Assembly: GCA_008632985.1 (NCBI GenBank)
Contig: QPGO01000193.1
Location: forward strand, 1-64,000
Origin: Psammoneis japonica
Lineage: Eukaryota
DNA length: 64,000 bases
Direction of reading: 5' to 3'
A program made the position numbers and the translations under genes. The notes beneath the pieces are model-generated. The model ran no database searches, was not told the origin of the DNA, and was given only the letters and a program-made list of their open reading frames with translations. Each line of letters begins with the position of its first letter. The first letter of the stretch is position 1. Positions 8,460 through 63,110 of this stretch are shown here, piece after piece.

Positions 8460-9884
8460 CTACTGCATGCCAAAATGTCCATTGGCTATTTCTTGAAAAT
8501 GATTTTTGTACCGACGAAGAATCTCCTCCTTTATCATGCGCTCCTCCACCTTAGCGTCCGGGTGAAACTCCATATCCTTCATCCACATGGTTGCGTGATT
8601 CGATATCGCCTGTGCCTCCTTGCTATGGTGCTTTATCCAAATCATTTTCTCTTCCACGTCGCTAATGTCTGTAGCCAACGGAACGTAATGAACCCAAGGA
8701 ACTAGCAACTCTTCCATTGCCCAAGATGTATGCGTGGGTGGTGGCATTAGGACTACAGAGTTCGAAAGTAGAGCCCACTTGAGACCGCTTGCGACATCGT
8801 TGCCCTCCAACATGATGATACCCTTGTACGTTAGCAAGTTTTCGACTGTCACTTTCTCAGATACAATCAATGTCCCGTCAATCGTCCTTGGTAGGCGCTT
8901 TCGAGTCGTAGTCAGTTTAGCATCCACGTAGGGCGAGTGAGCCGTTTCCAGAACCAAACGGCATCTCATCATGCGTTGGCAATTTGCTAGATCCGTCGAG
9001 TGTTTGTTATAGTTCTCCAATGCCCCCGTCAACTGACCCCTAAAGACCGCTACATCTTTTTTATGCTCCCATGGTATATCCACATCCGTTATATTTGGGA
9101 GCAAACGAAAGTGACGATGGGTCGCAAGTTTCCAAACAATCGGAGAAAACTGAGCTTGCCCAAGAAAAGTTGGTAATACAGGCCGCGAAGTCCAATCTAG
9201 GCATTCCCCGTCAGTGACTGCCTTCAACGCTTTACTCGTTGTTCCACTCCGAAACTTCTTCAAGTGAGGAATATTGACCATTCGAAATACATGAGAATGC
9301 TTCATGTCACCAAACTGTAGCAACACGGGAAATGCTGAACCATGTTCAGAGAACAATTTCGGAAGGATAGAAATCATCTCCTTGGCATCCTCACAGTACA
9401 TTCTCATGTTTGAGCGAAACTTAATACGGCCTTTATACTTTGATGGAATACCTTGGTCGGATTGAAGTTTAATCTCGTCCTTAGAACGAGCACAATCAAA
9501 GATAGTTTCTGGCGTGAAGAGGAAGAGCTTATCGGGCTCAATGATACTGCGTACGTCCAACGGATAACTTGAGTTGGATTTGTCAATCACGTTTACTGAT
9601 GGCCATCCATATGCTTCTCTTTTAAACCGATAAGTAGCTTGTTGCTGATTCGAACAAGGCGGAACATACCAGTTGCCCATGTACACCTTGATCCGTTCTT
9701 CGACCGACGGGAATCTCTCGTCTCGATTCGATGCAATGGGAGGAACAACAATCTTCATCGATTCATGCAATGGCGTAAATGGTAACAGAGAAGAAGGATG
9801 GTTTGCAGCATTGACACCACGGAACCATGCTGTGACCACGAGATACTGCACGAGAAAACGCAAACTCATTCGACCGCCGTTCAT
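8460..9884 (-). CDS. Glycosyltransferase family 90 (CAP10/POGLUT-like), signal-anchored
   Basis: 474-aa ORF with N-terminal hydrophobic segment; PWEHKKDVAVFRG, YKGIIMLEGNDVASGLKWALLSNSVVLMP, WAMEELLVPWVHYVP. Confidence 0.88.
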   Translation of the reverse strand: MNGGRMSLRFLVQYLVVTAWFRGVNAANHPSSLLPFTPLHESMKIVVPPIASNRDERFPSVEERIKVYMGNWYVPPCSNQQQATYRFKREAYGWPSVNVIDKSNSSYPLDVRSIIEPDKLFLFTPETIFDCARSKDEIKLQSDQGIPSKYKGRIKFRSNMRMYCEDAKEMISILPKLFSEHGSAFPVLLQFGDMKHSHVFRMVNIPHLKKFRSGTTSKALKAVTDGECLDWTSRPVLPTFLGQAQFSPIVWKLATHRHFRLLPNITDVDIPWEHKKDVAVFRGQLTGALENYNKHSTDLANCQRMMRCRLVLETAHSPYVDAKLTTTRKRLPRTIDGTLIVSEKVTVENLLTYKGIIMLEGNDVASGLKWALLSNSVVLMPPPTHTSWAMEELLVPWVHYVPLATDISDVEEKMIWIKHHSKEAQAISNHATMWMKDMEFHPDAKVEERMIKEEILRRYKNHFQEIANGHFGMQ

Positions 9885-10566
9885 GCCAAAGCCAACCGTG
9901 AGCTGCCGGGTTTGGCAACCGCTCGAAGACGAAATAATGAATCATGTTGCTTTGATCACTCTCACAAGTAAATCAGGTCCGCGTGCTTGTTGTGTTTGTG
10001 ACTAACATCGGATTCGCAAAGAGTGCTTCATTGCGGCTCTCCCTCTCAAGAGAAAGTTTCTCGCAACCCTCATAAAAGTTTATGTATATATAAGGAATTA
10101 AAGGATACATAAAAATCGAAAATCAAAAATTTCAGTTGAGAGCGTATTTAACATATACATCTCTTTTGACAAAGGAATAAATAGGTCCGTTGAAATATTC
10201 ATCGCGCCATTCTGAGGAACGTCCGACACACGTATGATGAAGGGATGAATGATGATATGATTTGCCAACCTTGATAGATCAAGTCCTTGCCGTTATCCTC
10301 TACTTTGCGCTTCCGGTTACTGTTTTAGTGCGCCACACTCTGCATTCCAGAGCTGTCACATGTGACCGACCATAGCATAACAACCGAGAAACGCCAGTAA
10401 ACTAAAACTTTTTCCTCCAGAGAGAGAGAAGAAATATTCTTCCAGTCGCACAGAACATTCTCTATAGTTTTGAGCATACTTAGACTTTGCGTTTCGACAA
10501 GTTTAACATAAAACTATGTACACAGTAAAATGAAAGGTAAACACCGAAGCTTCCGACAAACCATAA

Positions 10567-12030
10567 TCAATCCCTCTCCTCACGAAAATGGGTCTGATAT
10601 CGCCGAATAATCTCCGCCTTGATCAGTCGCTCTTCTCGACGGGCATCGGGGTGGAACTCCATATCTTCCATCCACGCAGTTGCGTGTTTAGAAATAAGCT
10701 GAGATTCCTCTTGGTGTTCAAGTACCCACGCCATTTTTCCCTCTACATCGGAAAGGTCATCACTGAGTGGCACATAGTGAACCCAGGGTTTCAATAGTTC
10801 CTCCATTGCCCAAGAAGTGTGCTTTGGTGTTGGCATGAGGACTACTGACTGACTCAACATGGCCCACTTGAGACCACTAGCAACATCGTTCCCTTCAATC
10901 ATGACAATTCCCTTATAAACCAATAAATCTTGCATTAAAACCCGAGGAGTGACAACAGTCGTTCCGTTGATAACGTCACCAATCCTTTTTCGCGTTGAAA
11001 CAAGCTTGGCGTCGACAAGCTTTGAATCTGCAGAATCTAGTACCAACCTGCATCGTTTCATACGTTGGCAGTTCTCGTAATCAGACTTGTGTAAATCGTA
11101 GCTCTCGAGCGATCCCGTGAGCTGCCCACGAAAAATCGCCATATCTTTTTTCTTTTCCCAGGGCGTGTCTTTTTCCGCCACAAATGATATCAACCCAAAG
11201 TGCCGAGGAGTATTAAGCTTCCAAAGGATTGGAGAATACTGTGATTGGTTATGATTGGTTTGTAGTACCGGTCGAGCATTGGGTGAAAAGCAGTTATTGG
11301 ACGTAACCCTTGCCAACGCCTTGGTGGATGTGCCACTCCGAAATTTCCTTAAGTGAGGAACATTGATCATTCTCAACACATGAGAATGCTTCATGTCCCC
11401 GAATTGCATTAGAATTGGAAATTTAGGTTCCTTTTCTTTCACGTAGACATGCTGAAGGACCGAGATGATTTCCTTTGCGTCAACGCAATAGAGTCTCATG
11501 TTGGTTCGGAACTTGATGCGATCTTCGGTCTTCAATCGGATACCTTTATCATAACTCTTTTGATATACTTCTTCCGATCGAGCACAGTCCATCACAATCT
11601 CTTTGTTAAACCAAAATAACTCATCCGGTTCAATGACGTTGAGTACCTTCATGGGAAAGCTGGAGTTGGTTTGATCAGTGATTACCACGTTGGTCCAGTT
11701 TCCACCCGTGTTGTTAACCTTGTATGTTGCTTGCTCCTGTCCTTGACAAGACGGCACATACCAGTTCCCCATGTAAATCTTGAGTCTCTCCTCGACCGAT
11801 GGGAAACGTGCGCTTCGATCAGATGGTACGGGCGGGACAGTGATTGCGGCTGACGCGGCTACCGCAAAGAAGACATGGCTTAGTAGAACTAGCGACAACA
11901 ACGCATGCCGTGGTTTTACTTGTTTAGGCAATGCTCTGGTCATGTCGATCGGCTTCATCGTAAGGAGGCAATGGGTGCGTTTGGTGCAGATTGTGTTTGC
12001 CAAGATCGCGGGGACTCCTCCTCCCTCCAT
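10567..12030 (-). CDS. Glycosyltransferase family 90, tandem paralogue (true start may be 11958 or 11943)
   Basis: Colinear with the neighbour: RFPSVEERLKIYMGNWYVP, QFGDMKHSHV, IEGNDVASGLKW, WAMEELLKPWVHYVP. Confidence 0.88.
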   Translation of the reverse strand: MEGGGVPAILANTICTKRTHCLLTMKPIDMTRALPKQVKPRHALLSLVLLSHVFFAVAASAAITVPPVPSDRSARFPSVEERLKIYMGNWYVPSCQGQEQATYKVNNTGGNWTNVVITDQTNSSFPMKVLNVIEPDELFWFNKEIVMDCARSEEVYQKSYDKGIRLKTEDRIKFRTNMRLYCVDAKEIISVLQHVYVKEKEPKFPILMQFGDMKHSHVLRMINVPHLRKFRSGTSTKALARVTSNNCFSPNARPVLQTNHNQSQYSPILWKLNTPRHFGLISFVAEKDTPWEKKKDMAIFRGQLTGSLESYDLHKSDYENCQRMKRCRLVLDSADSKLVDAKLVSTRKRIGDVINGTTVVTPRVLMQDLLVYKGIVMIEGNDVASGLKWAMLSQSVVLMPTPKHTSWAMEELLKPWVHYVPLSDDLSDVEGKMAWVLEHQEESQLISKHATAWMEDMEFHPDARREERLIKAEIIRRYQTHFREERD

Positions 12031-12279
12031 CTCGCTTCTTTTTGGGTCACTTTTTGGATTTTAAAATTTTATTACATAATAACGGTTTGTAGAAGTTCAT
12101 TCAATATTTTAACTGGTCTAAGTTTTCCGTTGTAATGAATTCAACGGAATGGGTCGATTTCATTTACGATAGTAAAAAAATAATCAAATGAACATTTATG
12201 TATTTTAAGTTATGTATACAGAGAATTCATCTATGCGCGAACACAACTTGAAGATGGCACAGCGAACGATAGAATTTCT

Positions 12280-13725
12280 TCAAACGATTGTACCATTGAC
12301 GTCGTTCCCAGCAATGTTTGTTCCGCCATTGATTTGAATGCGAGACACTCCACTGTTGGCGATGTCGTTGTCGTCGAAAGAGTGAGAATCGCCATTATCA
12401 ACAAGAATGCCATACTGACCACTACCGTGGATGAAGTTACCATCAAACAGGCCATCAAGTCCGCCATTTACGTAGATACCACTGCTCCCAGCATTCGTTA
12501 GGTTATTGAACGTGTAATCACCGGACCTTCCCGTAAGCACAACAATGTTATGCTTGCCACTGCCTTCCACCACGTTGCGGTGCACAAGGTTGTCCTTGGT
12601 GGAACCAGAGACGGACGGAGCTCTCAAGTTTCGAATCCCGTGTTCGGTGGAGTTTCGAATATTGTTCAGATTCACAAAATTGTTGCGGACGCGAAAGGGC
12701 ATAGGACACGCTCCCCTGGCGTCTTGCAATTCAAGCAAAAGGCCAATGCGGTTATCGTCCATCACATTCTCAGTCACGTCAACACCGGACGTAGTGATGA
12801 GAGAGACACCAATGTCGTTATCATCCACGACATTTTTATCAACTTTGGTTGATGACGTGGTGCAAAGCGTGAGAATACCCGAGCTAAGGTAATGGGACGG
12901 AACCGCCGACACGTACTTGGTGATCGTGTTGAGTGTGACGGTGGCCTTGGCTTGGCGAGAAACCTGGATCCCGCTGGCAGGGAAGGGAACGTACCCTGTA
13001 CCAGTAATGGTATTCTTCTGGATATGACCCGACATGCCGGCACCATCAACGACAATACCACCTGCAGTAGGTTTCATGATTTTGCAGTTTGAAACCTTGA
13101 TGGACTTGTTGGACCCTGCTTCAAGGGCTCTTGCAAAGACTCCGTAGGAAGGAGTGGGATTTTTGCTGTTGTGCGTTTCAAGGTTCACCATGTTGACCTT
13201 CTTGACGATGCCCTGGCACTCATCACACACGACCCCAGCAGTAATTGGGTTGTCGGAAGTGGTCTCCGCCAAGCTACTACGGCCGTCCAGCGTCAAGAAT
13301 GCGAGCGTGAACTTGCTTCCCGGAAGAGCATTGACAATGTAACGAGTGTCATACGGAGACTTTATGAATGTGCTTCCGGTTCCACGACCCTTGATGATTA
13401 CGTCCTTGCCTTGCGGGATAACCACGGCTTCCGTAAAGGTGCCACGGCACAAATGGAGAGTATCGCCTGGCCCTGCGGCCGCCAATGCAGCGCCAATGGT
13501 AGCAAAGCTGGAATCAGAGCAGTCGCCGACAATGTGAGTGACCGCCAGGTTCCTACGCTGACGCAAACTGGTCATAGCTGCGAGACTCCTGTTGCTGTCG
13601 TGCTTTTCTTGAAGAGAGAAATTCGTCACTAGCATACCAGACTCTACACCTTCAGCGAGGCTACGAGAGGCAGAGATGATGCCAAGCACCAACAGCTTCA
13701 GATGATCGACAAAAGACAACGTCAT
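12280..13725 (-). CDS. Secreted right-handed parallel beta-helix (pectin-lyase-like/NosD-like) protein
   Basis: Signal peptide from MTLSFVDHLKLLVLGII; TIGAALAAAGPGDTLHLCRGTFTEAVVI cap motif; many G-I-x-V...N-x-I (PbH1-type) rungs; intronless. Confidence 0.8.
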   Translation of the reverse strand: MTLSFVDHLKLLVLGIISASRSLAEGVESGMLVTNFSLQEKHDSNRSLAAMTSLRQRRNLAVTHIVGDCSDSSFATIGAALAAAGPGDTLHLCRGTFTEAVVIPQGKDVIIKGRGTGSTFIKSPYDTRYIVNALPGSKFTLAFLTLDGRSSLAETTSDNPITAGVVCDECQGIVKKVNMVNLETHNSKNPTPSYGVFARALEAGSNKSIKVSNCKIMKPTAGGIVVDGAGMSGHIQKNTITGTGYVPFPASGIQVSRQAKATVTLNTITKYVSAVPSHYLSSGILTLCTTSSTKVDKNVVDDNDIGVSLITTSGVDVTENVMDDNRIGLLLELQDARGACPMPFRVRNNFVNLNNIRNSTEHGIRNLRAPSVSGSTKDNLVHRNVVEGSGKHNIVVLTGRSGDYTFNNLTNAGSSGIYVNGGLDGLFDGNFIHGSGQYGILVDNGDSHSFDDNDIANSGVSRIQINGGTNIAGNDVNGTIV

Positions 13726-14823
13726 GGTGTAATTCTTCAAAGGTTTTTGTATTGAGCAGCTACGTCGATTACTTTTGAGGAGAGCAAGTTCTTTCGATGA
13801 CTTTTTTGAGTTTCGAGGGGACACAGCTGTGATACATTTCACGAGTAACATCCGGTCTTCGAACAAAATTTCGTTTGGTATTGTAAGCAGGCTAGGGCTT
13901 CTTTTCAATAAGTAGAAACAATCCCATATAGCCTCTGACATAAGAGATTCGTGGTCAATCTTTGTACGGTACTCAAGGGCTTCTTTTCAATAACTAAACC
14001 GAGTTTGACATGACTCCATCACAGCTCTTGCATAATAGATTCGTGGTCAAACTTTACACCGTACTCCGCTTGTATTTATGGAACTTGTTCCCGGGACGAT
14101 TTCTTATTGTATACTCTAGAACGAATCGAAACCCGTTTATATGCCGCTGTAAACATAAAGGGACGAGTAGCATTTCACCTTTCCGTGGTATTTCTCGTTG
14201 CACGTCCCAGGACACCATCACAACTGTTGCGTCGAGAGGAGATACCAATGGACATTAAGCGTGTCTTATAAAACAGTCACGGAGAATTCATGGATGGGCC
14301 TAGTAGCGCTTTCGAACCGAGGCTCTGACTCGTTCCGCGAAATTATCCCCAGCAAGAACCCAACGTCTGATTAAACATCGCTGAAATGGCGTTGGGCATT
14401 TTTGCTACACAACAGAATCAATTTCTTGATCGTTTCTAGTCGTAGTTTGCAGTCATTGTACATATTATAGCCCCTTTCATCCAGTATGTGTTTTGGTGGG
14501 AGAGAATGAAACGTTGCGTTGCTAAGCACGCATCCTTGGCAGCAACAACATCGTCATCGTCGCATCGACATGCTGCCAAAAAATGAGCGAAAAAAAGTAG
14601 GAGGTTGCACGGATGAATGACGGACGTTACTCGAACAGTTCGAATTTTCAAGTTTAAATCATCATATTCAGTGATAGCAAAGTGAATGAATCTCAAAAAT
14701 CTCCCTCCTACAAAATCTGAAACCGCGTGCGTGTTTATACATCAACGCAATGTCTCAGCTTGTATTGCAACCATGAAAGGCTCCATTATCTCCTCCATTA
14801 GAGCATTGCTTGGAAGATAAAGA

Positions 14824-17551: not shown

Positions 17552-20500
17552 GATATACACTGTAATGGATGGCTTTCTCTAGGGAAGGGTTGAAAAGTGT
17601 TGCACCGATACGTCACCCTCATTCACCGCCATTCTGTACTTCTAAATGCTCATCGCGTGATGAGTTGGCGCAAAACAGTCACGAGTCGTCGTCACGAATA
17701 GCACCGCTTTGTTCTGAAAATAGATTTCTAGTTTTGTTTTTTTTGAAAATGTCAGCCTCACTCACACACAAACTGTCGGTCATGATGTGTGTGTGTGTGT
17801 GCGTGGCAGTTTTTTTCTTGTGACTGCGAAGAAGCTCGAAAGCGACCAGGTTTGCCGCATGTGCAAATTTCAGTCATTGATTGCATTGTTCCTGCAACAA
17901 TTCACGGTCCGCTGTGACACTGTTCAAAGCATTCTTTCATCTGGCGGATGTTTTGCCGTGGCGCAGGAGGAGTGAGGACAAGAGGGCAGCATCTTCTTTC
18001 TCTCTTGAGTGGCTGAGGAAGGAGGCTGTTGTTGTCAAGAGTTCGCGCAACTTCGTTGCTGCACAGCACCACCCGGTTGATTGTTTTGAAAGTCTTTTTC
18101 AGACTGATGCAACTTCATGAATTGTTGGAGACACACCTGGGAGAAAGATGGTCCATCAAAAACAAGCAGGTGCTTGAGATGTGTTTTCATCCCAGGTGAG
18201 AAATGCGCGTGCAGAGGTGAGACGTTTCGTCTGTCCCTTTTCCATCGCCGTGCTTTTTGTGCAAGCAAATCTGACTGGACTTTCCCCCGATTTTTCGTTT
18301 CTTCTTTCCACAGACATGTTTGTTTTGAAAAGCCAGCCGTTGTTCTCATTGGTTGAAGGGTGCGCACAAGAAAAGCGCTGTCTCGAAAGCGGCATTTTTT
18401 GGAGTGAAGCTGACAGCCATCTGCTCGTTGTTGTTATTCTGGTGCATTTGAGAGACCATTCTGCTGTTTCTTTTGCCGAATCTGACTGCTTTGAAAGAAT
18501 GCATGCATTGTTCATTGTGTGAAGAGCTCACACCAAAAAAGAACGGCGTTCTAACTCTGTTGTTTGCATGAGAAAAATCGGGGGAACTGACTTCGCACGT
18601 GATTTTTTTGCGCGATCGGCCATTTCAAAGATCGACTGATTTGTCGACCTGTGTGGGACACTTGAGTGAATAAAACAATGGGATTGAAATGGCAGCGTCA
18701 AAGTTCAATGTGTGTCCAGTTATTGTGTGATTTGACATGCCTGAGTGGAGTTAAAGATGAAACATTGACAAAATTTCACCGCTCAAAATGACCAGTTCTA
18801 TCTTGGAATAAAATGAAATGGCTGCAACACTGAGACATCGCCAATGGCATTGTTCCACTTTACAACAATGAAACTGTCACACTTGCATCTGAGATTCTTT
18901 ATCCTCACACACCCTCAAAACCGAACACATGACAATTCTCTTGTCGGCAGCAAAAATCTGATGTTGTCGCGCGACCCAAAAGCGTCGTCCATGACGACTC
19001 AAAGTGCAGACGATGCATCATAAGAATCACAGCAACGTGTCATAGAAACATTCTTCATTGTCAGCATCTGGTGTCAAGCAGATGGAGCAGCGCGTTGATG
19101 AGAATCCCACTTCGCAAGCTGAGGAAGAGAGAAAGAGGCATCAAAAATGTCATGAGTCAAAAGGCTGTCCACAAGGCACAACAAAAAACAAAGATCAAAT
19201 TTTCAACCACATCATCGCATTGAGCGTTGTCTCATTGACCTGTCTCGGCATTCTTACCTTCTCAGTCACAACATCCGTTGGTGTAAGAATGGACGAGTTC
19301 ATGGCGACGGCATGGTGCCATTTTCGGTTTGCGCGAATTGTGGTTTGTGGTTCGAGACATGGAAAAATATATTTTTACTGTCATGGAGCTCGTTTTTTAC
19401 TAAGATTTTTGGTGCTAAATGTACGTCTCATGTAGAAACACGTAGAAAACCTCGTGATGTGTCCAAAAGTTTCTCACCCAGGATGAAAACACATCCTTGA
19501 TGCTCCTGGGCATGTTTGAATGCAAGGCGAGCTGAAACATTGTGTCCACAGAAAAAGTTGGAAAAAACACAAACCAAACAGCATGATTGTGCCCTCCATT
19601 CACAATCAATGGGTCAGTTGCTCTCCATTGCTCTTGACTCTGCTGTCCTCCAGTGATTGGTGTGACCAGACCTTGAGCTGGAGCTGGCCAAGGCTGGGGC
19701 AACCCAGATTTGGAGCTCTGGCTGGAGAGCCACAACGGGTGGGTGGCATGGACTGCAAGCAAAGCTCACTCTCAAACTCATCAGCATGGCAGCACAATGT
19801 TGATGAAAGAAAGGAGTGAGCTTGCTTCAACTCATGTGGTGCTCGCGGGCTCATGCACTGCTTCTGCATCAGCCTGGCTGATGCAGAAGCAGATCACGGA
19901 AGACAGCCCCCACTCACGCAGGGGGAGGCACAGACCACTGTCTCTCATTGGTCTCTGATCTGTGATGAATCATCTGCTCACAAAATTGCCCCCGTTGTGA
20001 GATGATGCTTGGTGCTGTCAAGTTGTGTGGTGAGCCATTTGCCAAGTGCTGGCCAGGCCAATGCGCAGCCAAAACACTGGGATTTTTGGCCAAATGGTTC
20101 AACAATCCAACCAGAACAAGCCAGGATTTGACATGGGGCAACAACTTCTTTGGCATCAGCACCCACTTGCAGCAGCACCTGCGTGTGTTTCTGCATGCAT
20201 GCTCTCACAACAATGATGCAACCTTTCTCAGACGGTGTTTGGCTGGGTGGTCCACCCAAGACCATTTTTGCTGTTTCTGCCCATGACACACCTCCATTGC
20301 AGCATGACATGCAATCCTTTTGAGTGAAAAATGACTGTCATTGACACCTTGTGGTTCATGTGCTTGTCATTCTTTTTGGCATTTTTTGCAAACTCAATGC
20401 ATTTTCCAGAGACAGGAGGATTGTCCAGCACAAATTCTGCGCACTTCAGAAATGTCCACCAGTGAACTGCGTGAACCACTTCTGTCTGTGCATGTCAGCT

Positions 20501-21328
20501 GTCAATGATTTTTTCTTCCCTTGCTGGTCAACCAAGTTCTTGACCTCATTTGGTGAAAGTTCTGTCCCCATTGTGGTGCTTGTTGGTGTTCATTTAGACA
20601 AACCACTGGTGCCACCTGACGACATCATCCATCTGCTGTGTGGGTTGGCATTTCTCTGCACAAGATTTGGCATCATAATTCCACTTGAGGGTGACACTCC
20701 TTCCAAATTCCTTCTCATCATGTCATCAAGGCTCCCTGTTTCATGCCTGCAAGTCCTGAACATCCCTTTTTCTGCTGACCAGCTCTGACCAAGATCACTG
20801 CTCTGCACACAGTGGGTTGTTTGCTTTCATTCCCACACCTGCAAGTGTGAAAAAGCAAGGTTTTTCTCCCTGACTTGAGCTGCTTTTGCATCCTCTTCTG
20901 AGCGCAATTGTTCTTTACCGTCATGGTGTGCACACTTTGCATCCATTCCAAAAGAAAGCAATGACCTCCTTCTTGCGCAATTTCGTTTCAATCAGTTGTC
21001 ACTCCTCACAGAGAGCAGTGGAAGTGTGGGTCAGCTCCTGGTGCCAGTGCTGTTGGCTGGGCAAAGGTGTGACAGCACTTAAAATCATTTTTTGATTTTT
21101 TGTGTGCAAGGAGGCAACATGTCCAAAGGATTCATGCAAATTTGCCATGAAAACTTTAGTCCAATGGATCAATGAAGATGCCACACTCAATTGCCTGCTT
21201 GGACATGATCCACAAAACAAAACCAAAATTCCACATTTGTGGTGCTGCTGCGCTTCCACCCTGCAACTCCGGCAACAAGCTAGCCCACACCCCCAGCACA
21301 CTAAAAGTGCGGCAGGAGCAAATGGTGG

Positions 21329-22450
21329 TTAGCCGAGATCGGCATCACCCGAGGGTGACGCCACGCCAAAACAACTTGCGATGGTTCTGGTGCCTCGTGC
21401 AGCCAAACGTTTGGCTTCGCGCATGCTTGATTTAAAGACTGGTTTGAACATGGCCAACCAGTTTCGAATCCGGTGAGCAGAGTGTGACAGGTGTTCTTCT
21501 GCCGAATCAAGGAGGAGCACCTTGTCTCTCGCAAGATGATCGTCTGTGCGAGAATGAATGGCCTTAACCTCTGCTTCTGCGTCTCGTCTTTGAGACGACT
21601 TCCTTGTTTCCGAATCGTGTCCGTGCACAGCATCGTTGTGAGCGTCCCAGAGGTCCCACCACTGCTCCCATGTGAAATTCCCAACAGTTGCAGCCCAATC
21701 CAGCCATTTCTGTTGATCTGAGAGAGTCCGACAAATGCCGCTCGACGAAAGGCAAGAGGTTTGCGTCGCATTCCACTGGACAGAAAAACGGCCATCAAAC
21801 AACTGACGCCAACCTGTTTCCCCTTGGGAATGAATTGCGGGCACGACGCTGTGATGAAATTGTTCCGAGTGCAAAAGCTCGCCTCGAAACCATGCTTCAA
21901 CAGCCGAAATTGTCAAGTCTCGTAAGGAAGGAGACGTGTGAATGTCATCGCACTTCTTGCGCAATCCTTGTAAAAATTTTCTGCGCCAGGCTTCATTGTG
22001 AGGGCAACGGAGAATGTGATCTCTATCTTCCATGGGGTCCTGACAGTGAGTGCAACAGTCCGGACGTGTCGGATTGCATCTGTGTGCAATCTTGTTGGTG
22101 GGCAGAAGATCTTGAACCAGCTTGACGGTGCTGACTTTTCGACGAATGTTTCGTGACATCAATTTTGAATGAACGTCCCAATCAATCGATGCGTGCACTT
22201 CGTCGGACCAACTGTGTTTCTCTTTCATGCACTGAACCAGTGCGGGACTCGACGCCTGACATCTGACAACCGGCTTGCATTTGGAAGAAACAGTGGCTCC
22301 TTGAAGAAGCAGGTTTGCTCGGCAATGAGGCATGCGGGGAGCAGCTTGGACATGATCCACAGTGTGCTCTTCCAAGGTCTGCAGACGATCCTCCATTTGC
22401 ATGTCCAAGGTCTCTTGGCCCAGAAAGATGCTTCTGTCAGCAACTTGGTC
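21329..22450 (-). mobile_element. 3' fragment of a non-LTR (LINE-type) retrotransposon ORF2, post-RNase H / zinc-binding region
   Basis: SIDWDVH...KLVQDLLPT...CCTHCQDPMEDRDHILRCP...Q.ETGWRQLFDGRFSVQW...WDLWDAHNDAVHG matches the C-terminal pattern of LINE ORF2 proteins; 359-aa ORF with zero Tyr. Confidence 0.8.
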
Positions 22451-24326
22451 AATGGTGCTGGCCAGAGCAGGTCAGCCTTCTGCCACAACCTGCTCAAAGG
22501 CGGCACGTGTCTTTGCAAGCAGGAGGGCCTCTTCTTTTTTCCTTTCTTTTCCCCATGACTGGGCCATGAACACTCAGAGGATTCTTGTTTGTCCCAGTCC
22601 CTTGATGGCAAGAGGCTTGGTGCCACACTTTTGGGCAATCTTGTCGAAGTTCAGATGTTTGACAAAGACTCCAATGGATCCAGCAGTGGCAAAAGGTGGC
22701 CATCACCAGGTGATGAGCTTGGCTGGGGATCATGCAGCCCCCACTGGCAGCCACTTGGTTGACGCTCACCATCAAATGAACACCAGATTCCTGAGCCAGA
22801 TGACAAACTTGTGCAGCCACCAATCCACATGTCAACAACCCCCCTCCCATGGTGATTTCACAAGAAGAATGATCTTCAATGGTTTGGGCCATTGCTCATC
22901 TTTTGGTTCAATTTTGGTCAAAGTCATGTTGACTTGTTGCTGTTGTTTGCCACATTTTCTTGGTTTGCACTGACAATTGTCAATGCACCCATTGCTTGAT
23001 TCTTGGTCTCTTTCTCCTCTTTCCTCCAGTGGTTGTTTGCCAATTGTGGCAGTTTCCCACTGCCATTGTTGTGGGGTGCTCAGGGAGGGTTGTGCACTGA
23101 AGGCATGGGCACAATGTTGATGAGTGACAAAGGTGCCAATCTTGGTGAGGTGCGGGGTGTCAAAATTGCCACTCCAATCAGAATCAGATTCAAGGGGGGG
23201 GGGGGGGGGGGGNACCACCTAGACCATTCAATCAAAAGGTCTGGTGTCAGTGCAACCTGATTGAGGGGTTCTCCCTCCTTTCACCTTCTCAAGGGGGGTC
23301 ATTTTTTGCCACTTTTTTTAGCTCGAATTTGGCCGAACAGCTCGTGATTTGCATGATTTGTCCTGAATTTCACCTTGCGTCACCATGGTGAAAACATCAA
23401 GCCATGAGTCTGTGATGGAAATGGCCCATCTGCCAACTCTTGTCCATTTTATGTTTGTTGTGTGTCAAAGGTCACATGTGCCCCAAATGTTTGTAGATGG
23501 ACCACTGCGTTTTGGAGGAATGTCGAGATTGCCATCATCGTCGTGCTTTGATCACGGTGCTTGATGTTCTCATTTTCATGTGCAATTGGGTGCAATGCAA
23601 ATGATTTTTGCATTCAAAAACAGGCACTTTAAAAAATCCCATTTAAATGCCTCAGCAATTCTGGGACAAACGCGGGCGGGGATGACCTCTCTCAAAGAGG
23701 CCAGGCCCAGTGCAGAACACGTGCCCATGCCAAGCTGGGTTTGCCCCCCAAAATGTGTGCAACTCATGCTTGGTGCATGGCGCCTCTTTTTTTTTGTGAC
23801 TGATGGAAAGGCTGAAGACAAAAGATGAAGCAACGGCATGCTTCAGCCCTGTTTGCTCATCTTTTTTGTCTGTTGGGGCAATGCTTCCACACATTCACTG
23901 CAAGTCGGGGCAGCCAAAACACAGAAGTTTGTTGACACACAGCAACAGCAACAACAGCAGCAACAACCTTGATGCTGTCATCGATGCAGCCTGTCGACAT
24001 CAAGATCAACTCATGTTGTGGTGAGAGAAGCGGGTCAAACAGCAAGGATGCACTGGGTTTCCAGGTTGCCCCCAAAACTTTCCGGGGTCTGCTTGCAATG
24101 TCTGATGTCTGCCGTGTGCCGCGCCGCGGTGCCGATGCATGGTCCCACCAAAACCTTGAAATCGGACATCGGCTCTTGGCTCAGACCAAATCAATCCTTC
24201 CATTCCATGGCACGTGTGCATGTTGGAATCTTTTGCATTGCGGCAAGGTCATGATGCGTTGTTGCTGTGACAATTGTGACTTGTTTGTGTGCCCGGAGGA
24301 AAAGTGTTGGTGTGCATCATAGAACG

Positions 24327-25130
24327 ATGTCGACCAAGGCTTTTGACAACATTCTCAAAAAGATCAATGAGACCTCCACAGATCCAAAGGATTGGGAAGA
24401 GTTTGAGAAAAAATGGAGTGAAGTTAAAGAGGCAGGTGACACCGATGAGGAACACTTTGTTTTGGATTTTGATGGACCCTGCCCTCCCTTGGGACTCTAC
24501 AAAAAAATTCTTGCCGACGGTGAGTTCCCTCATGGAGATGAGTTGGAACCTCCCTTGATTTGACTTGTGTTGTTGATTGCCACAAATTCAGGACACTGTT
24601 CAGTCGAACACTGCTGTGCTCTCAAGAAGGATTGTGGCTCCAAAGACAAGGAGGAATGCGCTCACAGATGCAATGAACGTTGGGCGACATCCCACTCCGC
24701 ATTGACGTGGTTGTTGATGGAAGTGTGCGTGAATGAGTCACAAATTTCCAATGTGGAACATGTCGTTGGCTTGATCACCTGCATGGTGACAAAAAATCCC
24801 AAGCTGTGGCAGATCAAACCAACTGCGTTATTTTCAAAAGGCGAAAGAGGTGATCCTTGGAACATGGTTTGTCAACTTTGGGAGAAGGTTGTCAACTTGT
24901 CCGGCATGGACGACAATGAAAAAACTTGACTGGCCAAGGAGCATTTTGTGCTGACTCAAGACAGTTACAAGGCTTTTCTCGAATCCCGCAAAAAGTCGGA
25001 CCTGGAAGTGTTCCTTGCAGCGAAAGGCATTGATTGTCTCCCATTTGAGGCTTTGGATTCTGCTGGCCGACCCAGTGAGAAACACACCTGAAGCTGAAAA
25101 AAGAAGAATGGACAGCATGTGCAGTGAATG
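24327..25130 (+). pseudogene. Degenerate ORF of unknown family interrupted by in-frame TGA stops
   Basis: MSTKAFDNILKKINETSTDPKDWEEFEKKWSEV... reads protein-like in one frame through TGA codons at 24561 and 24927, consistent with CGA->TGA. Confidence 0.45.
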
Positions 25131-27217
25131 GTCTCCTCGTTGCCTGTTGCACCCAGCTCTTCGTTGTGTTTGCGTTTTCCACTCAAACTGTGAAATGGAA
25201 AGCTGTGACCGGCAGCTGGCCAGAGCAGTTCATTTGTGGACAAGGTTCTTGTGTTGCGGTTGACTCGACTGAACAATCACCACTTCTTGAAACCCATGTA
25301 CGAACATTCGGGAACCGGTCTCACAAAGCAGATCGGCAGCATTTCTGAGTGGAGGAAGGAGACAACCACTCAACATCCCTCGAAGCTTCATTCTGCTCAG
25401 GGGTGCACTTGTCCATGCCATGACAGTTTGGATGAGCGGACGAGTTAGGACTTCCAGAACACATCCGGGTTCTTGCAAAATGCCTGTCACAATGGAAGCT
25501 TGACACAGGAACAACTGACAAGCCTTTTGTTCATCGTCGAGGCTCGTCACCACACTGTCAGAGAACCCTTGGCAAGGACTTAGTCTCCTTTGACAACCAT
25601 CGGGGATGATGCATCATTGCTGCTCCCAACTCTTGCTTTTGTCTCCATTTTGACCGACTGGGTTGCTCAGGAACAGAGCGCAGGCCTCGAATGATGACTC
25701 CACTCAGAGCCAAGTTTTTGGTCACTGGAAGCACCCAGTTGTGAAGAAGAGGTGCAGTGGCAGTTCAAGTCATTCATTGTGGAGATGCAAGAATGGTTGT
25801 CCATGCCATTGCCAGCGGGCTTTTTTCTGCTCAGCACCAGAAACCAGGGCTGACCATTTGTGGATCTTGACTGACATGTTCGCAGATGGCTCAATTTCCA
25901 GTGGGCTCCCAACAATGTGAACTCCAGTGCATTTGCCAGCATCTTCACCTTCAAGAAGGAATGGTGCCAAGGGATTTGTGACCTGGATTGTTCCAACTGG
26001 GATGTGGTTCAATGGGCAGACAATGGCACAGAAGTGGACCAAAAATGACGGCCATCATGACCGCCGGCTCCTGTCTGGCCCTCGCACTGTGATTTCCTTC
26101 CTGGTGCTGGTGCTGACAACTGACATCAGCGTGTGCTTTTTAAAACAATCACAGGAGAAAAGGGCAAAGGCAAGAGGATTTGATTTTTGGGATTTTCTGC
26201 TGCACCAGAAAGGTGCGGTGTGCTGCACGCCTCATCGCTGCTGGCAAAAAGCAGCGACATGAGGGTGGTGTGTTGTCACAATGTTTGTCATGCTGGTGAT
26301 CATGTGTCCTGGATTCTTTTGTCTTTGCAAACACTCAGTTTGTTGAGTTTGCAAGAGCACTCATTTGCAAAAGTCCCCCAGAACAGCCCTCGCTCATTTT
26401 CAAACCATCGCGGCAACAGAGAGCTCTGCGCTTTTTCTGCCAGTCACTTTTGATGTGTTCAACATCATTGAATGACTGAGACTTCATCCTGGGGGACTTT
26501 TTTACATGTTCACAACAGTGTGACATGTCATTGTGTCAAGCAGCCATTGCAAAGTCATCGTCAGAGAGGGTTGGAAAGTGTTTGTCATCGTCATCCGCTT
26601 CAAACGGCAACTTGTTGAGCAAATTGCACTCATGTGCACCACCAACGTTGTCTGTCCAAAATTTCAACACCACATTTGGTTTTGTCACTCACTTTTAAGC
26701 TGCTCGTAAATCAACACAAGCGCAAGAGTTCGCAGGTGACATCGCTCCCTCCAAGAGGAGGTGCAGCGAGTTGCGAGTTGGCGCAAAATAGTCACGAAGC
26801 ACCGGTTTCTGAAAATGTCAGCCTCACTCACACGCAAACTGTTGGGTCAAGTGAGTGTGGCACTTTTTTTCTTGTGACTGCGAAGAAGCTAATGACAGCC
26901 ACTTCCATAAGTCATTATATGAAGGTGTCAATAAATATTGTCAGACCGACAATGTCTTGACATTGGTTTTTTCTTCAATGACGCTCACTATCGAACAATG
27001 AGAACGACGAATGAATCCAGGGCTCCACGACTTGATGCTGCCACAACTATCTTGTTGATCTCTTGACACGCTTTTTCTCGATTCTTGATTGAGAAACGTC
27101 AAGATAAGGTAGTAGCTGGTGTGTTTTGGACGGGAGGATACGTCCACATAACGTGAGAAAAAAGAACAAAAAGGTTGAGGTGTTCCAAGAGTAGACAGCC
27201 ACTGCATTCAAAGCACA

Positions 27218-39089: not shown

Positions 39090-41420
<2,331 letters not shown>

Positions 41421-53868: not shown

Positions 53869-54432
53869 AATGTGATGTTATTTGCGTGGCTACTTGTTGG
53901 TAGAGAGACTTGCATAACTCATGCTGTGCATGATAATGTTGTGTAAATGAGAGAAATTATGTAAGCAACCCAGTTTATCTTTTCTGAATAGGCATCGGAG
54001 CTCATGCAACACCGTATCTTTTACGTGATGTCTGCCTACGTGAGACAACTTTCACGCAGCTCCGAGACTGTAGCTTTCTCGTCATTTTCGATCAGTCAAT
54101 GCTCTTGCCTTTCAAAACATCCAGTTGAACATATCTCAAAATGTGATGACTGAAAAGGGGAAAGCTATTACTTCGCAAGCTCCCGGTATAAAAGGTTATC
54201 AGACTACCGTGTCTGGGAAATCCAACAACATATTTACTAGGACAGTAGCAATAAGCACGGTGCTCTAGTGAAGAAGGAAAGTGAGCGGAGGATCTCAGAG
54301 AAATCCAAGCACTGTCTACATGCACTGATGTCTTCCCACCATGGTTTTCAACCATTTCATTGCAACTGTTTTTAGGCGCTGGCACCAACACGTACCCACG
54401 TACTTTGCCCGGTGGAAGATGAATGACAAGCA

Positions 54433-57208
54433 TCAGTTGCTTTGTTGTCGAACGCTCCACCGAACGCCAATGTCATCCAAACGTTTCTTGTGGTCTCGTT
54501 TAAGTGTCGCCGTTTTCCTCAACCTGTGCTGCCAACTTAACCACAACCCAAGATTCTTTCCATCCTCTGTGTGCTTCTGTGGAACGTTGCAATCCCCTTC
54601 GCGTTTCTCATGTTGGATGAGAAGACGAAACATTTCTTCCCATCTTTCAGAAGGAACATTCCAAGCAACGCCAACGTTTGTGAGCCATTCCTCAAGAGCA
54701 CTGTCGAGCTTCCCGGCATTCCTCAAAAACCGCTGCCGATGTGACCACTTTCCAAGGTTCTTTCCATCCTCAACATGGCTGTCTCGAATGTTGCAATCCC
54801 CCACGCAATCTTCACAGTGGACGAGGAGTCGAAACATTGCTTCCCAACGTTCAGAAGCAACCTTCCAAGAAACGCCAACATTGTTGAGCCGTTGCTCAAG
54901 ACCACTGTTGAGCTTTCCGGCATTCCTGGAAGCACGCTGATTTTTTAACCAACTTTCAAGGTTCTTTCCATCCTCTTTGTGCTTTTTGCAATGCGGCAAT
55001 CACCCTCTTGTTTCTTACATTGGAGGAGGAGTCGAAACATTGCTTCCCATTCTTCAGAAAGAACATCCCAAGCAACGTTAATGTTTTTGAGCCGTTCCTC
55101 GTGAACTCGGTCAAGCTGCCCAGAATTTTTCAAAAATCGCTGCCTGCATGACCACGCTCCAAGGTTCTTTCCATCCTCGACATGTCGTTGTGGAACATGA
55201 CAATCACCTTCTCTTTCTTCACAGACCAAAAGCAATTCACACATTTGATCCCAAAAGCTTTCACGGTTCTTGCACTCCGTGATTGCTCGATTCATGATGT
55301 CGTTCTTCAATTCAAGCGGCATTGAGTCTGGGAGCATGAACGATTCAAGCACCCGAGAAGGGAATTCTGCATCACACAAAGACCTTCCGAGTCTGGCGCT
55401 CTCATCAATTACAAACACGACATCCTCCCACAATTTGGGATCCAATCCAACCATTGCATCGAATGCCAATGTGAAAGATTCATAGCCACCTTCATCTTCC
55501 ACAAATCCAAGTGTCTCCAGTTGTGGGTGAGGGTGCCAAAACATGTCCACGCTCTTTGCCAGGAGCCCTCCGGCTGACACGTCCAATCATTTGGCGCGTC
55601 AACGGCACTTCGGACAGGATCTGCCATCACTGCCAACTCCCAATCTGCCTCGTCCATGCCGGTGGCCAATGCTCCACAGTTGGCAACAATCGATTTGGTT
55701 GCTCATTTTGCTCTTGACAAGATTTCTTCCCGCTTGGCAGGTGACATGTCAGAGCTGCCACTGACCGCAAATGCGGTGATGTCGTCCTTCTTGAGAACTG
55801 GTGCTGCATCACGCACAAAAGCACGAGCACAGCAGTTCATGGAATGGAATGACATGGTGCTGCTCACATTGAGTTTGTGAAAAGCTGCTTGAATTGCAAA
55901 TGGGAGCAGGCAGTCCTTCGAGAGTGCCGGCGGGATGGAATCATCAAGGAGCGGATCAGCAAGGACGGCGTTGATTTTGTCGGCATCCAACACACAAAGT
56001 GTGATTGGAACGGTGACATTTTGGTTCACGGCATCACTCAGCGTCCGTTTCGCAAGGCATGGTCCAAACAAGGTTGCATTGTTAAAACTGCGGACACCAG
56101 CAGCCTTTTTGGGCTCTGAGCTTTTGTTGGGAATGAGCGTTCACGAGCCATCCTTACAAAGCTTGCCACCGACAATGGCAACCTGCTGTGGAGTGTCCGT
56201 GTGCCGACATGGAGCAGCAGTTAGAAACAAGTGACAATCAACTGGGATCAACGAGTCACAGAGACCATGTCCAGACATTTTGCCGATCCCTTCCATTTCA
56301 TGTGCCTCATCAAATGCGGCAAACCCAATGGCACCAACGTGCTTCGACAGCGCCTCTCCAACCTCAGGCAACGACTTGCAAGTGCAGCCAATGAAGGATG
56401 AGCCGTCATTTTTTGAGGATGGAAATGCAGCAATCTCGTCAGAAGATGTTGTGCAATCCTCAGTGCGATTGGTCTGGCTCGCCACAATCAATCGCGAATG
56501 AGGCACATGATCAAGGACTCCAAATCGATCCAAGCCATCCAGCACTTGATCCACGAGTTTCAAAGTTGGTGTGACACACATGGCTGATTGAAGCATTTCT
56601 CTGCTCGGACCCATTCCGTCCATGGCAAAGTTTTTGATCGACTTGAGTGCAGGCAGTGTTTTGCCCCACCCCGGCGGAAGCTGGACGTTGGCCCGGCGAC
56701 CACCTTCTGCCCTTCGAGATTTCTTGTTGTTGTGAGCATTCTTTCTGCTTTTTCCTCCATCCACCTGTGCAGGAGCTCTGCAAAAGCACTCTGCAGTCGA
56801 ATCTAAAATGTCATTGTGACGATCATCTTGCTGTTGACACTCGTCTTGATAATTTTCTGACACACTCGCACTTGTTTCTGATGCTGTTTTCTCTGCTGCT
56901 CTCAAGTGATCTCCTTGTTCTCGACATCCTTTTGTCGGATGAGCTCTGTGATCATCATGCTTCTGACTTGTGTCCTCCAGGATTGCTCCAACCCTCACTG
57001 CATCGACTGCTGCATCATTCAGAACCTCAACTGCTGCATGCGCGCTTGTCTGATGCTTGGGCGCTGTCGTCACTCTTGAACGGCTTCTAAATTGTGCGGA
57101 TTGAAACTGAAAAGACCCGCTGAACTGCTCCAGCATCAAAACAAGGAAAATGTGGTGGCAGTTGTTCATGGTTGGTGTGTGTGATTGAAGGCACTGTCGC
57201 GCTGTCCC
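54433..57208 (-). pseudogene. Decayed SF2 helicase + HA repeats, copy 2 (inverted relative to copy 1)
   Basis: Colinear with 4661-7440 starting at gggacagcgc; LPPGWGKT, FDEAH, EDEGGYESFTLAF, four HA repeats. Confidence 0.9.
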
Positions 57209-57399
57209 AGGCATCAATCAAGTTCAAAATGGTTGAACGCCAAGGCTCAAAGGCGCGGGCGCGCGGGCACGCGACATCTGTTGTTCTGCTGGGAGTTGCA
57301 CGAAATGTCGAAATTTTCGTTTTTCTTGGTTTTTCCCTGTTTTTCGCGATTTTTCGAGACAAGAATTCATTTTGTTCATCCCCCAAAGTGTTGCATTTA

Positions 57400-57900
57400 G
57401 CAAGTGCACTGGTGTGCGAACGAACACCGACTCCAGATGGGGTCAAACGGCGAACGCGGTGATGGTTCGTTGATGATGCGAAACGAGAAAATCAGTTCCG
57501 TCCACCATCACTGTGCATGCCATTGTCATCCATGAACCTGTTTTGCCAGTCAATCTAAGATGAGATGATGGTGAAGCCAATGCCAGCACATTGATTTTCA
57601 AAAAGAGATTGGAGTGATGGTGCACAACAAGTCCAGATTTGCAATTAACTCCACCCCGACACAAAACCATTTTCTTGTCATGACTTTGTGTGATCCACCA
57701 CAGATTCCCGGCACAATGGTTTCAGAACAATGCAGATTCAGAGAACAAGGGCACACAACAAGTGAGTGGGCAGGAACCCATGAGAAATGTTGCCTTCATC
57801 TTGAAGAAGGCCCCACAACTTGCACACCATGTCTTGCAAAGTGCTCAAGTGTGGCACGAACCTGTGGTTCCAAATCCATTCCGATCTTGTCAGCCTCTGA
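57400..57900 (-). pseudogene. PIF/Harbinger-like DDE transposase N-terminal remnant
   Basis: VCKLWGLL...PTHLLCAL...GICGG...TRKW...IANL, then IDWQNRFMDDNG..CTVMVDGTDF RI.NEPSP FDPIW CSH (first catalytic Asp in VDGTDF). Confidence 0.75.
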
Positions 57901-62749: not shown

Positions 62750-63110
62750 CCTGGCACCTCACCAGCCTTGAGCAAGGATCTTCAGGTCCCTTGTTGTTTG
62801 AGAATGACAAGGCAGCAATCTTGTCTGATGATGTTGTACAACCCTTGGCACTGCTGGCCTGGCTTGTGCCACGATCAACCTTGAATGAGGTGCAAATGAC
62901 CAAGTGCACCACCCCAAGCTTGTCAAAGCATCCAGCACTTGATCCACAAGTTTCAAGATTGAAGCAATGAAGGCAGCTGATGAAAGTCTTGTTCTGCTCA
63001 CACCCAACCCACCCAACACACAAAATTTTCTTTTCTTTCAAAGCAAGGAGCATTTTGCTCCATCCCTGTGGTGAGTTGGATGTTGGCCTGGCGAGCACTT
63101 TCTGCTCCAC
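62750..63110 (-). pseudogene. Third, more diverged fragment of the SF2 helicase gene (motif I region)
   Basis: Reverse complement gccaacatccaactcaccacagggatggagcaaaatg and LKLVDQVLDAL...TTSSDKIAA match copy 1 at ~5190-5520. Confidence 0.7.

What the first reader, a model, noticed from the sequence alone, without database searches (positions are those of the whole stretch)
21300..22420. TpA loss runs ahead of CpG decay
Seen: the LINE fragment is still an open 359-codon frame with many CpGs (gccgagatcggc, cttcgcgcatg, gctcgacg) yet has only about six TAs. Flanking DNA (19.8-21.3 kb, 22.5-23.2 kb) and 62.6-64 kb lack both TA and CG and have CGA->TGA type stops. Inference: two clocks, a fast TA-specific process and slower 5mC deamination. 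TA loss is therefore not a by-product of CpG methylation decay, and the CG level could be used to order insertion ages.
Basis: partly seen in the sequence, partly recalled or inferred. Interest (0 to 1): 0.75.

Follow-up and report, generated by a model that had tools for sequence, protein, structure and literature searches.

The report
TpA-erasing mutator outruns CpG decay
In this probable diatom genome, inserted jumping-gene DNA loses its TA letter pairs (to TG or CA) about thirteen times faster than its CG pairs, by a separate, patchy mutation process that the papers searched here describe only in one unrelated alga.

Summary
Observation confirmed. The stretch is a 5'-truncated LINE copy (21212-22345) with a target-site duplication, inserted into older DNA. 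It has 8 TA and 66 CG; the flanks lack both.

Eleven sister copies (two subfamilies) show the parents had gene-like TA (o/e 0.60). After insertion about 78% of TA sites became TG or CA, independently per copy and on either strand. CpG loss was 10.7% and transversions about 0.1%. The TA rate is 13x the CpG rate.

In 376 sampled 1-kb windows, 182 are TA-poor, and none of the 171 TA-normal ones has CG o/e below 0.5. TA loss is not a by-product of CpG decay: one duplicate pair lost 49 versus 1 TA but 4 versus 6 CG.

'Clock' holds only in part. TA loss is patchy and saturates; CG level tracks transversion age loosely (rho about -0.65).

Best reading: a domain-targeted TpA A:T>G:C mutator, probably DNA adenine deamination; the enzyme is unidentified. 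Closest known: the Bigelowiella natans preprint. This scan reported the phenomenon, the two-rate idea and the TAY preference many times on other DNA of this genome. Added here: rates, a wider motif, decoupling, and no Tyr loss in 120 outside homologs.

The parts
21212..22345 (-). 5'-truncated copy (last 1134 bp) of an 8.05-kb non-LTR retrotransposon, subfamily A; 36 of 44 inferred parental TA sites converted (20 CA, 16 TG), about 7 of 72 CG lost
21329..22471 (-). open frame of 380 codons with no Tyr; C-terminal end of ORF2 in 21332-22345, the first 42 codons are chance read-through of flank
21197..21214 (.). target-site duplication, copy at the element's 3' end (18-bp direct repeat; 13 bp lie wholly outside the element, the rest overlaps its ends)
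22344..22361 (.). target-site duplication, copy at the truncated 5' end; shows that the LINE is younger than both flanks
21212..21230 (-). 3' tail of short T-rich repeats, shared by subfamilies A and B and related copies
19800..21211 (.). older flank, TA o/e 0.05, CG o/e 0.19; holds a diverged copy (about 20150-21100) of a second repeat family, terminal transversion distance 3.7%
22346..23200 (.). older flank on the other side, 0 TA, CG o/e 0.11
62600..64000 (.). old repeat DNA, TA o/e 0.04, CG o/e 0.13; has relatives elsewhere, some much less eroded
17601..26900 (.). whole TA-poor block that holds the finding (TA o/e 0.10, CG 0.51)
54301..64000 (.). second large TA-poor block (TA o/e 0.07, CG 0.59), with a DEAD/HA helicase element at 54945-57217
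8460..13986 (-). internal control: host genes (two GT90 paralogs, a beta-helix protein) with normal TA and CG

Best explanation
Two separate mutational processes act on mobile DNA after it inserts. (1) A TpA-specific mutator turns A:T into G:C: the A of a TpA step becomes G on either strand, read as TG or CA. One hit destroys the step, so sites end as TG or CA and almost never CG. It prefers 5'-A-A-T-[A]-Y-Y and spares TTAA, CTAA and GTAA longest. It acts site by site, not in single-strand tracts, and on local domains rather than on every repeat. It never makes a stop codon but removes Tyr codons, including the Tyr of the RT YxDD motif. (2) CpG decay to TG/CA runs about 13x slower, with only mild context dependence. 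Young insertions therefore look TA-poor and CG-rich, old ones poor in both, and G+C content hardly moves. Shown from sequence (about 0.95): direction, specificity, both strands, post-insertion timing, rate ratio, patchiness. Inferred (about 0.8): targeting by silenced chromatin, and CpG decay as 5mC deamination. Inferred (about 0.55): the chemistry is enzymatic deamination of dA to dI by a TadA/ADAT- or ADAR-fold enzyme, fixed at replication. The enzyme is not identified.
For: Copy comparison, star-tree EM, 7 copies of A and 4 of B: about 2109 of 2722 parental TA observations converted (945 CA, 1164 TG, about 6 CG); 464 of 4355 CG lost; transversions 58 in 56,113 other sites. Only 3 non-transition outcomes at likely TA sites, counted in columns with one deviating copy. 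Polarity, three ways: spared tracts keep TA where sisters show TG 55, CA 38, TA 39 at 44 sites; at 21 RT columns with Tyr in at least 45% of homologs, copy L041 has C 7, H 3, Y 2, other 9; target-site duplications differ TA/TG (L050) and CG/CA (L047). Tyr codons in A: 24 of 223 kept, 117 Cys, 82 His. No strand bias once context is fitted (factor 1.02). Uncoupling: duplicate L113/L114, positions 5000-6499, TA lost 49 vs 1 of 82 (P 4e-18), CG lost 4 vs 6 of 76 (P 0.75). CG loss varies only 2-fold by 5' base (A 7.1, T 5.6, G 4.1, C 3.6%), so it lacks the strict 5'-T rule. Genome sample: 182 of 376 windows TA o/e <0.25, 35 of them with CG >=0.7; 0 of 171 TA-normal windows with CG <0.5. The same spectrum was measured de novo in B. 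natans (bioRxiv 10.64898/2026.01.13.699255).
Against: No enzyme, methylome, expression data or de novo mutation was observed. The deaminases found look ordinary or are widespread: ADAT2-like L036, TadA-like L033, two A_deamin genes. The second A_deamin gene is also found in diatoms of several genera, so its presence does not single it out. The one natural ADAT2 with DNA activity prefers GAA and TCG, not TA (PMC10354150, passages). TpA is palindromic, so sequence cannot tell whether the A or the T is the modified base. The two processes are not wholly unlinked in space: every CG-poor window is TA-poor, and TA-spared tracts also lost few CG (2 of 59 vs 18 of 177 in sisters; over all windows P 0.12). 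The star tree is an approximation: 8 of 93 other variable columns are shared by 2 or more copies. Neighbouring sites within 10 bp agree in strand slightly more often than shuffled (0.546 vs 0.502 +/- 0.021).
Confidence: 0.7

Rival explanations
1. Same targeting and outcome, other chemistry: a covalent mark on the T or the A of TpA in silenced DNA (such as an oxidised thymine or a methylated adenine) that is miscopied or converted by repair into a C:G pair.
For: TpA is palindromic like CpG, which suits a symmetric mark. The site-by-site, both-strand, tract-free pattern resembles decay of a marked base. The genome has many C5-methyltransferase domains (27 matches), so paralogs with changed specificity are possible (inference).
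Against: No known mark gives clean T>C or A>G at this rate (own knowledge). The weak off-target A>G has the same 3' order as at TA (AAT 1.9%, AAC 0.9%, AAG 0.2%, AAA 0.1%), which suits one enzyme reading sequence. No MT-A70 match, but that search rang in no control genome and shows nothing.
Confidence: 0.17
2. Error-prone patch synthesis by a Y-family polymerase (pol eta-like WA>WG signature), recruited to silenced DNA during repair of T:G mismatches from 5mC decay.
For: Five Y-family polymerase loci (6 matches). AAT is the best off-target context. All CG-poor windows are TA-poor.
Against: Almost pure transitions (3 exceptions). TA is hit 150-180x more than other A, far stricter than the TA-over-AA bias recalled for pol eta. 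No strand-coordinated tracts. TA conversions (about 2109) outnumber CG losses (464) and can occur without extra CG loss.
Confidence: 0.1
3. RNA editing (ADAR-like A-to-I) of the retrotransposon transcript before reverse transcription.
For: ADAR prefers a 5' U (stated in the B. natans preprint). Two A_deamin genes are present. The raw count leans to sense-strand A>G (1164 TG vs 945 CA; 239 vs 171 sites).
Against: 45% of changes are on the antisense strand, and the lean vanishes when context is fitted. Target-site duplications and non-retro DNA are hit too.
Confidence: 0.01
4. By-product of CpG decay, an element that never had TA, or an assembly artefact.
For: Both processes end in TG/CA, so 62 of 188 variable sites in the first alignment show only CA/TG. 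TA and CG o/e correlate among TA-poor windows (rho 0.63).
Against: CG decay cannot consume TA. Parents had TA o/e 0.60. Spared tracts show TA directly. Run contigs match the flanks exactly.
Confidence: 0.02

Closest known systems
TpA-restricted A:T>G:C hypermutation of integrated NCLDV and virophage DNA in Bigelowiella natans (Mettrop et al., bioRxiv 10.64898/2026.01.13.699255; read parts 1-4 of 5, supplements not seen)
   Same: Only transitions TpA>TpG/CpA, on both strands, of the order of 1000x background, confined to foreign or mobile DNA, with RT and DDE genes among TA-poor sequences; deaminase suspected, none proven.
   Different: There: a rhizarian, measured de novo, two viral regions, TpA only mildly depleted (Rho 0.45), 124 clusters; the text does not contain the words CpG or diatom. 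Here: a probable diatom, inferred from copies, about half of sampled windows near-stripped, transposons as main targets, a six-base context, and CpG decay following in the same DNA.
Repeat-induced point mutation (RIP) of ascomycetes (features recalled; indices seen in PMC7884421 passages)
   Same: Transition-only hypermutation of repeats that ruins transposon proteins after insertion.
   Different: RIP is C>T and creates TpA, lowering G+C. This destroys TpA and leaves G+C unchanged (0.495 vs 0.480). RIP hits both partners of a duplication; here one partner can be spared, and a 604-bp, 97.5% tandem duplicate at 2086-3293 is untouched.
CG methylation of transposons by DNMT5 in diatoms (PMC9998398, passages) with passive 5mC deamination
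   Same: Accounts for the slower component: CG>TG/CA on both strands, confined to repeat DNA.
   Different: Does not explain TA loss. Methylation and a DNMT5 ortholog were not shown in this genome.
Amphioxus ADAT2/3, a natural tRNA deaminase with DNA A-to-I and C-to-U activity (PMC10354150, passages)
   Same: Shows that an unengineered eukaryotic ADAT2 can deaminate dA in DNA. The ADAT2-like gene here has HxE, PC and the Asn of the GCxN motif.
   Different: Its motifs are GAA and TCG in hairpin loops, not TA. The Asn is conserved in ADAT2 orthologs generally, so it is no discriminator.

Membership tests
B. natans-type TpA hypermutation | changes are A:T>G:C transitions | tested here: met
   about 2109 transitions vs 3 other outcomes at TA sites
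B. natans-type TpA hypermutation | restricted to TpA, both strands | tested here: met
   TA hit 150-180x more than other A; strand factor 1.02; weak off-target at NAY
B. natans-type TpA hypermutation | about 1000x the background rate | tested here: met
   516-1097x the per-site transversion level in the two subfamilies; relative, not per generation
B. natans-type TpA hypermutation | confined to foreign or mobile DNA, genes spared | tested here: met
   host genes of the window normal
B. natans-type TpA hypermutation | de novo, intermittent activity in living lines | not testable with these tools
   only indirect: a duplicate pair with 0 transversions in 657 bp differs at 11 TA sites (L075/L082)
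B. natans-type TpA hypermutation | targets are transcriptionally silent; same enzyme in both algae | not testable with these tools
   no RNA holder listed; enzyme unknown in both
RIP | C>T at CpA that raises TpA | tested here: not met
   CA and TG parents are kept at 99.6-99.7%; TA falls
RIP | both partners of a duplication mutated | tested here: not met
   49 vs 1 TA lost in L114 vs L113; untouched tandem duplicate at 2086-3293
RIP | needs RID and the sexual cycle | not testable with these tools
   27 C5-methyltransferase matches were not assigned to families
5mC deamination at CpG | CpG-specific C>T, both strands, well above non-CpG C>T | tested here: met
   31-64x; CA 4.7-4.8%, TG 5.9-6.0%
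5mC deamination at CpG | the CpGs are methylated; DNMT5 present | tested here: inconclusive
   no methylome; two divergent methyltransferase exons found, no SNF2 domain seen in the 4 frames scanned near them
ADAR-type retroelement hyperediting | A>G on the RNA strand only, clustered | tested here: not met
pol eta WA signature | TA and AA both hit, many transversions (recalled) | tested here: not met
   AAN 0.1-1.9% vs TA 78%; 3 non-transitions
non-LTR retrotransposon (name 'Ambal-like' recalled, no paper found) | ORF1 plus ORF2 with endonuclease, RT and RNase H; 3' tail; target-site duplication; 5' truncation | tested here: met
   RT and endonuclease through homologs carrying PF00078 / PF03372; the eroded copies give no Pfam hit; RNase H read from recalled motifs only; tail, TSD and truncation

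The most novel reading that the evidence does not exclude
This diatom lineage runs a dedicated DNA adenine-editing genome defence, guided by chromatin, that has rewritten about half of its genome. It shares an origin with the B. natans process, which would make it an unrecognised mutagenic silencing system of the SAR lineages and a source of a natural TA-specific DNA adenine deaminase. Because it adds G+C while CpG decay removes it, it leaves no AT-rich isochores and escapes RIP-style screens.
Probability: 0.35. Interest if true: 0.92.

Novelty: new variant of a known kind. Interest (0 to 1): 0.72.

Why it matters
Targeted A>G mutagenesis of DNA is almost unknown in nature; the searches here found one preprint in one rhizarian alga. 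A second, far more thorough case in a probable diatom, which is culturable and transformable as a group, makes the mechanism testable. It also gives a sequence motif to screen enzymes against, and could yield a natural DNA adenine deaminase. In practice it warns that in such genomes open frames, missing Pfam hits and copy divergence mislead. Copies about 5% apart differ by only about 0.1-0.3% transversions, so ages from total divergence are inflated many-fold, and CG level is only a rough ordering tool.

Tried and rejected
Assembly artefact: rejected. TA-free parent: rejected. RNA-level editing: rejected. One enzyme for both TA and TCG, as for amphioxus ADAT2: not supported, CG loss is highest after A, not T. 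Transcription-linked strand bias: raw lean to TG vanished with context. Processive tracts: none beyond a weak signal within 10 bp.

Enzyme search: PF00383 gave 9 matches, read by eye as dCMP deaminase, TadA-like, ADAT2-like, RibD and two guanine-deaminase-like genes, none with a chromatin domain in the frames read. PF02137 gave two genes. The atlas gave no usable hit for the second. PF02245 (MPG glycosylase, which removes hypoxanthine) gave no match, control rang in 4 of 14; absence is not shown. PF05063 gave no match and no control rang. No RNA holder listed.

No TA-intact copy of subfamily A was found among the 8 seen. The identity of the older flank elements as coding DNA was not established. 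Three further distant copies were not read, so whether more TA-retaining copies exist stays open. Paper searches that found no description in diatoms; no 'Ambal' paper. Most subscription papers are not in the library.

Full report
Observation. For the true element, TA o/e is 0.12 and CG 0.87; the flanks have TA 0.00-0.05 and CG 0.11-0.19. Host genes in the window have normal values. Contigs of run X1 reproduce four flank stretches letter for letter, so this is not an assembly error, although X1 may be the source sample. The organism is probably a diatom: named homologs of a host deaminase exon and of the LINE RT are from diatoms.

What the stretch is. A search of the genome (91.4 Mb, 597 contigs) gave 41 matches. 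Homology runs 21212-22345. The copy is the last 1134 bp of an 8.05-kb non-LTR retrotransposon with a T-rich tail, bounded by an 18-bp direct repeat at 21197-21214 and 22344-22361. It therefore inserted into DNA already there, which fixes the order: CG-rich LINE younger, CG-poor flanks older. The 380-codon frame includes 42 codons of flank. RT and endonuclease identity rest on homologs, since the eroded copies give no Pfam hit.

Direction and timing. I aligned 7 copies of subfamily A (4 near full length, 3 partial, the window among them) and 4 of subfamily B, and inferred parental dinucleotides under a star tree. About 300 and 313 parental TA sites were found, giving TA o/e 0.60 and CG 1.02-1.03, like host genes. 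Of 2722 TA observations about 2109 are converted (945 CA, 1164 TG, about 6 CG), 69-84% per copy. Of 4355 CG observations 464 are lost (6-15% per copy). Transversions number 58 in 56,113 other sites. Polarity does not rest on the model alone. Copy L043 keeps 17 of 17 TA in its first 210 bases and L042 keeps 27 of 34 in a 640-base tract, where sisters lost 42 of 51 and 72 of 102. At 21 RT columns with Tyr in at least 45% of homologs, L041 has 7 Cys, 3 His, 2 Tyr and 9 other residues. The RT motif reads HVDD in four copies and CVDD in one, and YVDD in a distant, little-eroded copy. Target-site duplications differ TA/TG in L050 and CG/CA in L047. The star tree is approximate: 8 of 93 other variable columns are shared.

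Rates and signature. Per site, TA loss is 13.0-13.6x CG loss. Per base it is 150-180x other A>G and 516-1097x the transversion level; CpG C>T is 31-64x non-CpG C>T. Only 3 non-transition outcomes were seen at TA sites. TA retention runs from 4% in ATAT to 67% in TTAA. A fitted model on 2538 observations gives, around the mutated A, -3 A>G>C>T, -2 A>C~G>T, +1 T~C>G>A, +2 T>C>G>A. Off-target A>G follows the same 3' order. There is no strand bias after context is fitted and no same-strand tract, apart from a weak excess within 10 bp. The process made no stops: 8 of 9 new stops are CGA>TGA; 199 of 223 Tyr codon observations in A became Cys or His.

Are the two processes separate? Yes. In the duplicate L113/L114, positions 5000-6499 of a 4.3-kb match (the segment was picked because it holds most TA changes), TA was lost 49 vs 1 of 82 and CG 4 vs 6 of 76. 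CG loss shows only a 2-fold context effect and no 5'-T rule. In 376 of 380 1-kb windows from 38 stretches taken at a fixed offset in large contigs (4 dropped for N; not a random sample), 182 have TA o/e below 0.25; of these 35 still have CG of 0.7 or more and 111 are below 0.5. None of 171 windows with TA of 0.4 or more has CG below 0.5. Against full independence: both act on the same DNA, and TA-spared tracts also lost few CG (2 of 59 vs 18 of 177; overall P 0.12).

Is CG a clock? Roughly. Terminal branch length on transversion-only trees correlates with CG o/e at rho -0.65 (29 LINE copies; L045 dropped for length) and -0.64 (17 of 19 loci of a second family plus the window flank). Scatter is wide: L020 has 0.13 at 1.9%, L023 0.75 at 2.7%; L025/L026 are a recent duplicate of already decayed DNA. 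Terminal branches overstate age where close relatives are missing, and copies are not independent. The distant copy L167/L169 has TA 0.42-0.54 with CG 0.74-0.78, so TA loss does not always lead; its parent's composition is unknown. TA is useless as a clock beyond the first stage because it plateaus and skips tracts.

Targeting. Duplication alone does not trigger it: a 604-bp tandem duplicate of 97.5% identity at 2086-3293 keeps normal TA, and L113 was spared. In L043 the boundary lies about 210 bases inside the element next to gene-like DNA. This points to a chromatin domain, which is inference. The transposing lineages escaped: between the parents of A and B, TA gains and losses balance (98 vs 88) and TA transitions (31%) only modestly exceed other steps (9-27%).

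Distribution. None of the 120 listed RT homologs (of 152 hits), including 12 named Fragilaria crotonensis proteins, shows Tyr loss (2.3-5.6%, median 3.7%), against 7 Tyr in 1966 codons in L041. So this family gives no sign of the process outside this genome. Those homologs may be young or active copies, so absence elsewhere is not shown.

Mechanism. Pure transitions at a strict 5'-T, with a graded wider motif, best fit a deaminase acting on dA (about 0.55). A marked base (0.17) and a Y-family polymerase (0.10) remain possible. Candidates present: ADAT2-like, TadA-like and two A_deamin genes; the second A_deamin gene has close homologs in diatoms of several genera. No MPG glycosylase was found, which would help dI persist, but absence is not shown. 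None of this identifies the enzyme.

Comparison. The spectrum matches the B. natans preprint (parts 1-4 of 5 read, supplements not seen; its mutation table could decide whether the wider motif is shared). I owe that paper to earlier notes of this scan. It works like RIP in effect but fails RIP's defining tests. The CG component fits DNMT5-type methylation known in diatoms (PMC9998398, passages), not shown here. Searches for a description in diatoms found none (one search returned mostly fungal RIP papers, listing only). The scan has reported this phenomenon, the two-rate idea and the TAY preference on other DNA of the same genome; those notes are not independent evidence.

Verdict. Observation confirmed; interpretation partly supported (two processes yes, clocks only loosely); new variant of a barely known kind; interest 0.72.

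Noticed in passing
window 4803-7200 and 54945-57217: Two related DEAD/helicase-C/HA-domain elements, TA-poor but CG-rich, with frames almost free of Tyr: a second young family in the same state as the LINE.
   Followed up: partly
L043 first 210 bases of the element; L042 about 460-1100; L051 about 250-1000: Tracts spared from TA loss inside single copies; two of them overlap the start of ORF1, which may mark a promoter-proximal protected zone.
   Followed up: partly
L167:1500-3491 and L169: Distant full-length copy (63-67% identical to A and B) that keeps most TA (o/e 0.42-0.54) and its YVDD motif but has broken frames and CG o/e 0.74-0.78.
   Followed up: partly
L107:1114-2830: A second A_deamin (ADAT1/ADAR-type) gene besides the ADAT1-like L105; close homologs in Attheya, Skeletonema, Cylindrotheca, Seminavis, Stephanocyclus and Thalassiosira. 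Function unknown; a candidate only.
   Followed up: partly
G000, whole genome: No match to MPG/AAG glycosylase (PF02245), the enzyme recalled to remove hypoxanthine from DNA; 27 matches to C5-methyltransferase domains, several with stops.
   Followed up: partly
L116-L153: TA-poor and TA-normal windows have nearly the same G+C (0.495 vs 0.480): the two processes cancel, so no AT-rich isochores form.
   Followed up: yes
window 2086-3293: 604-bp tandem duplicate, 97.5% identical, with normal TA and CG.
   Followed up: partly
window 8460-12060: Two tandem glycosyltransferase family 90 paralogs with normal TA.
   Followed up: no
window 39101-41400: Low-complexity TG/CA-rich block with TA o/e 0.02, possibly a satellite at the end state of both processes.
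   Followed up: no
subfamilies A and B (L040-L049): Unexplained: the transposing lineages kept TA o/e 0.60 over about 7% transversion divergence although no TA-intact subfamily A copy was found among the 8 seen.
   Followed up: partly
L075 / L082 / L083 / L084: Very recent duplicates (0-1 transversions) already differing mostly at TA steps (11-17 TA changes per segment), a hint that the process acted recently.
   Followed up: no
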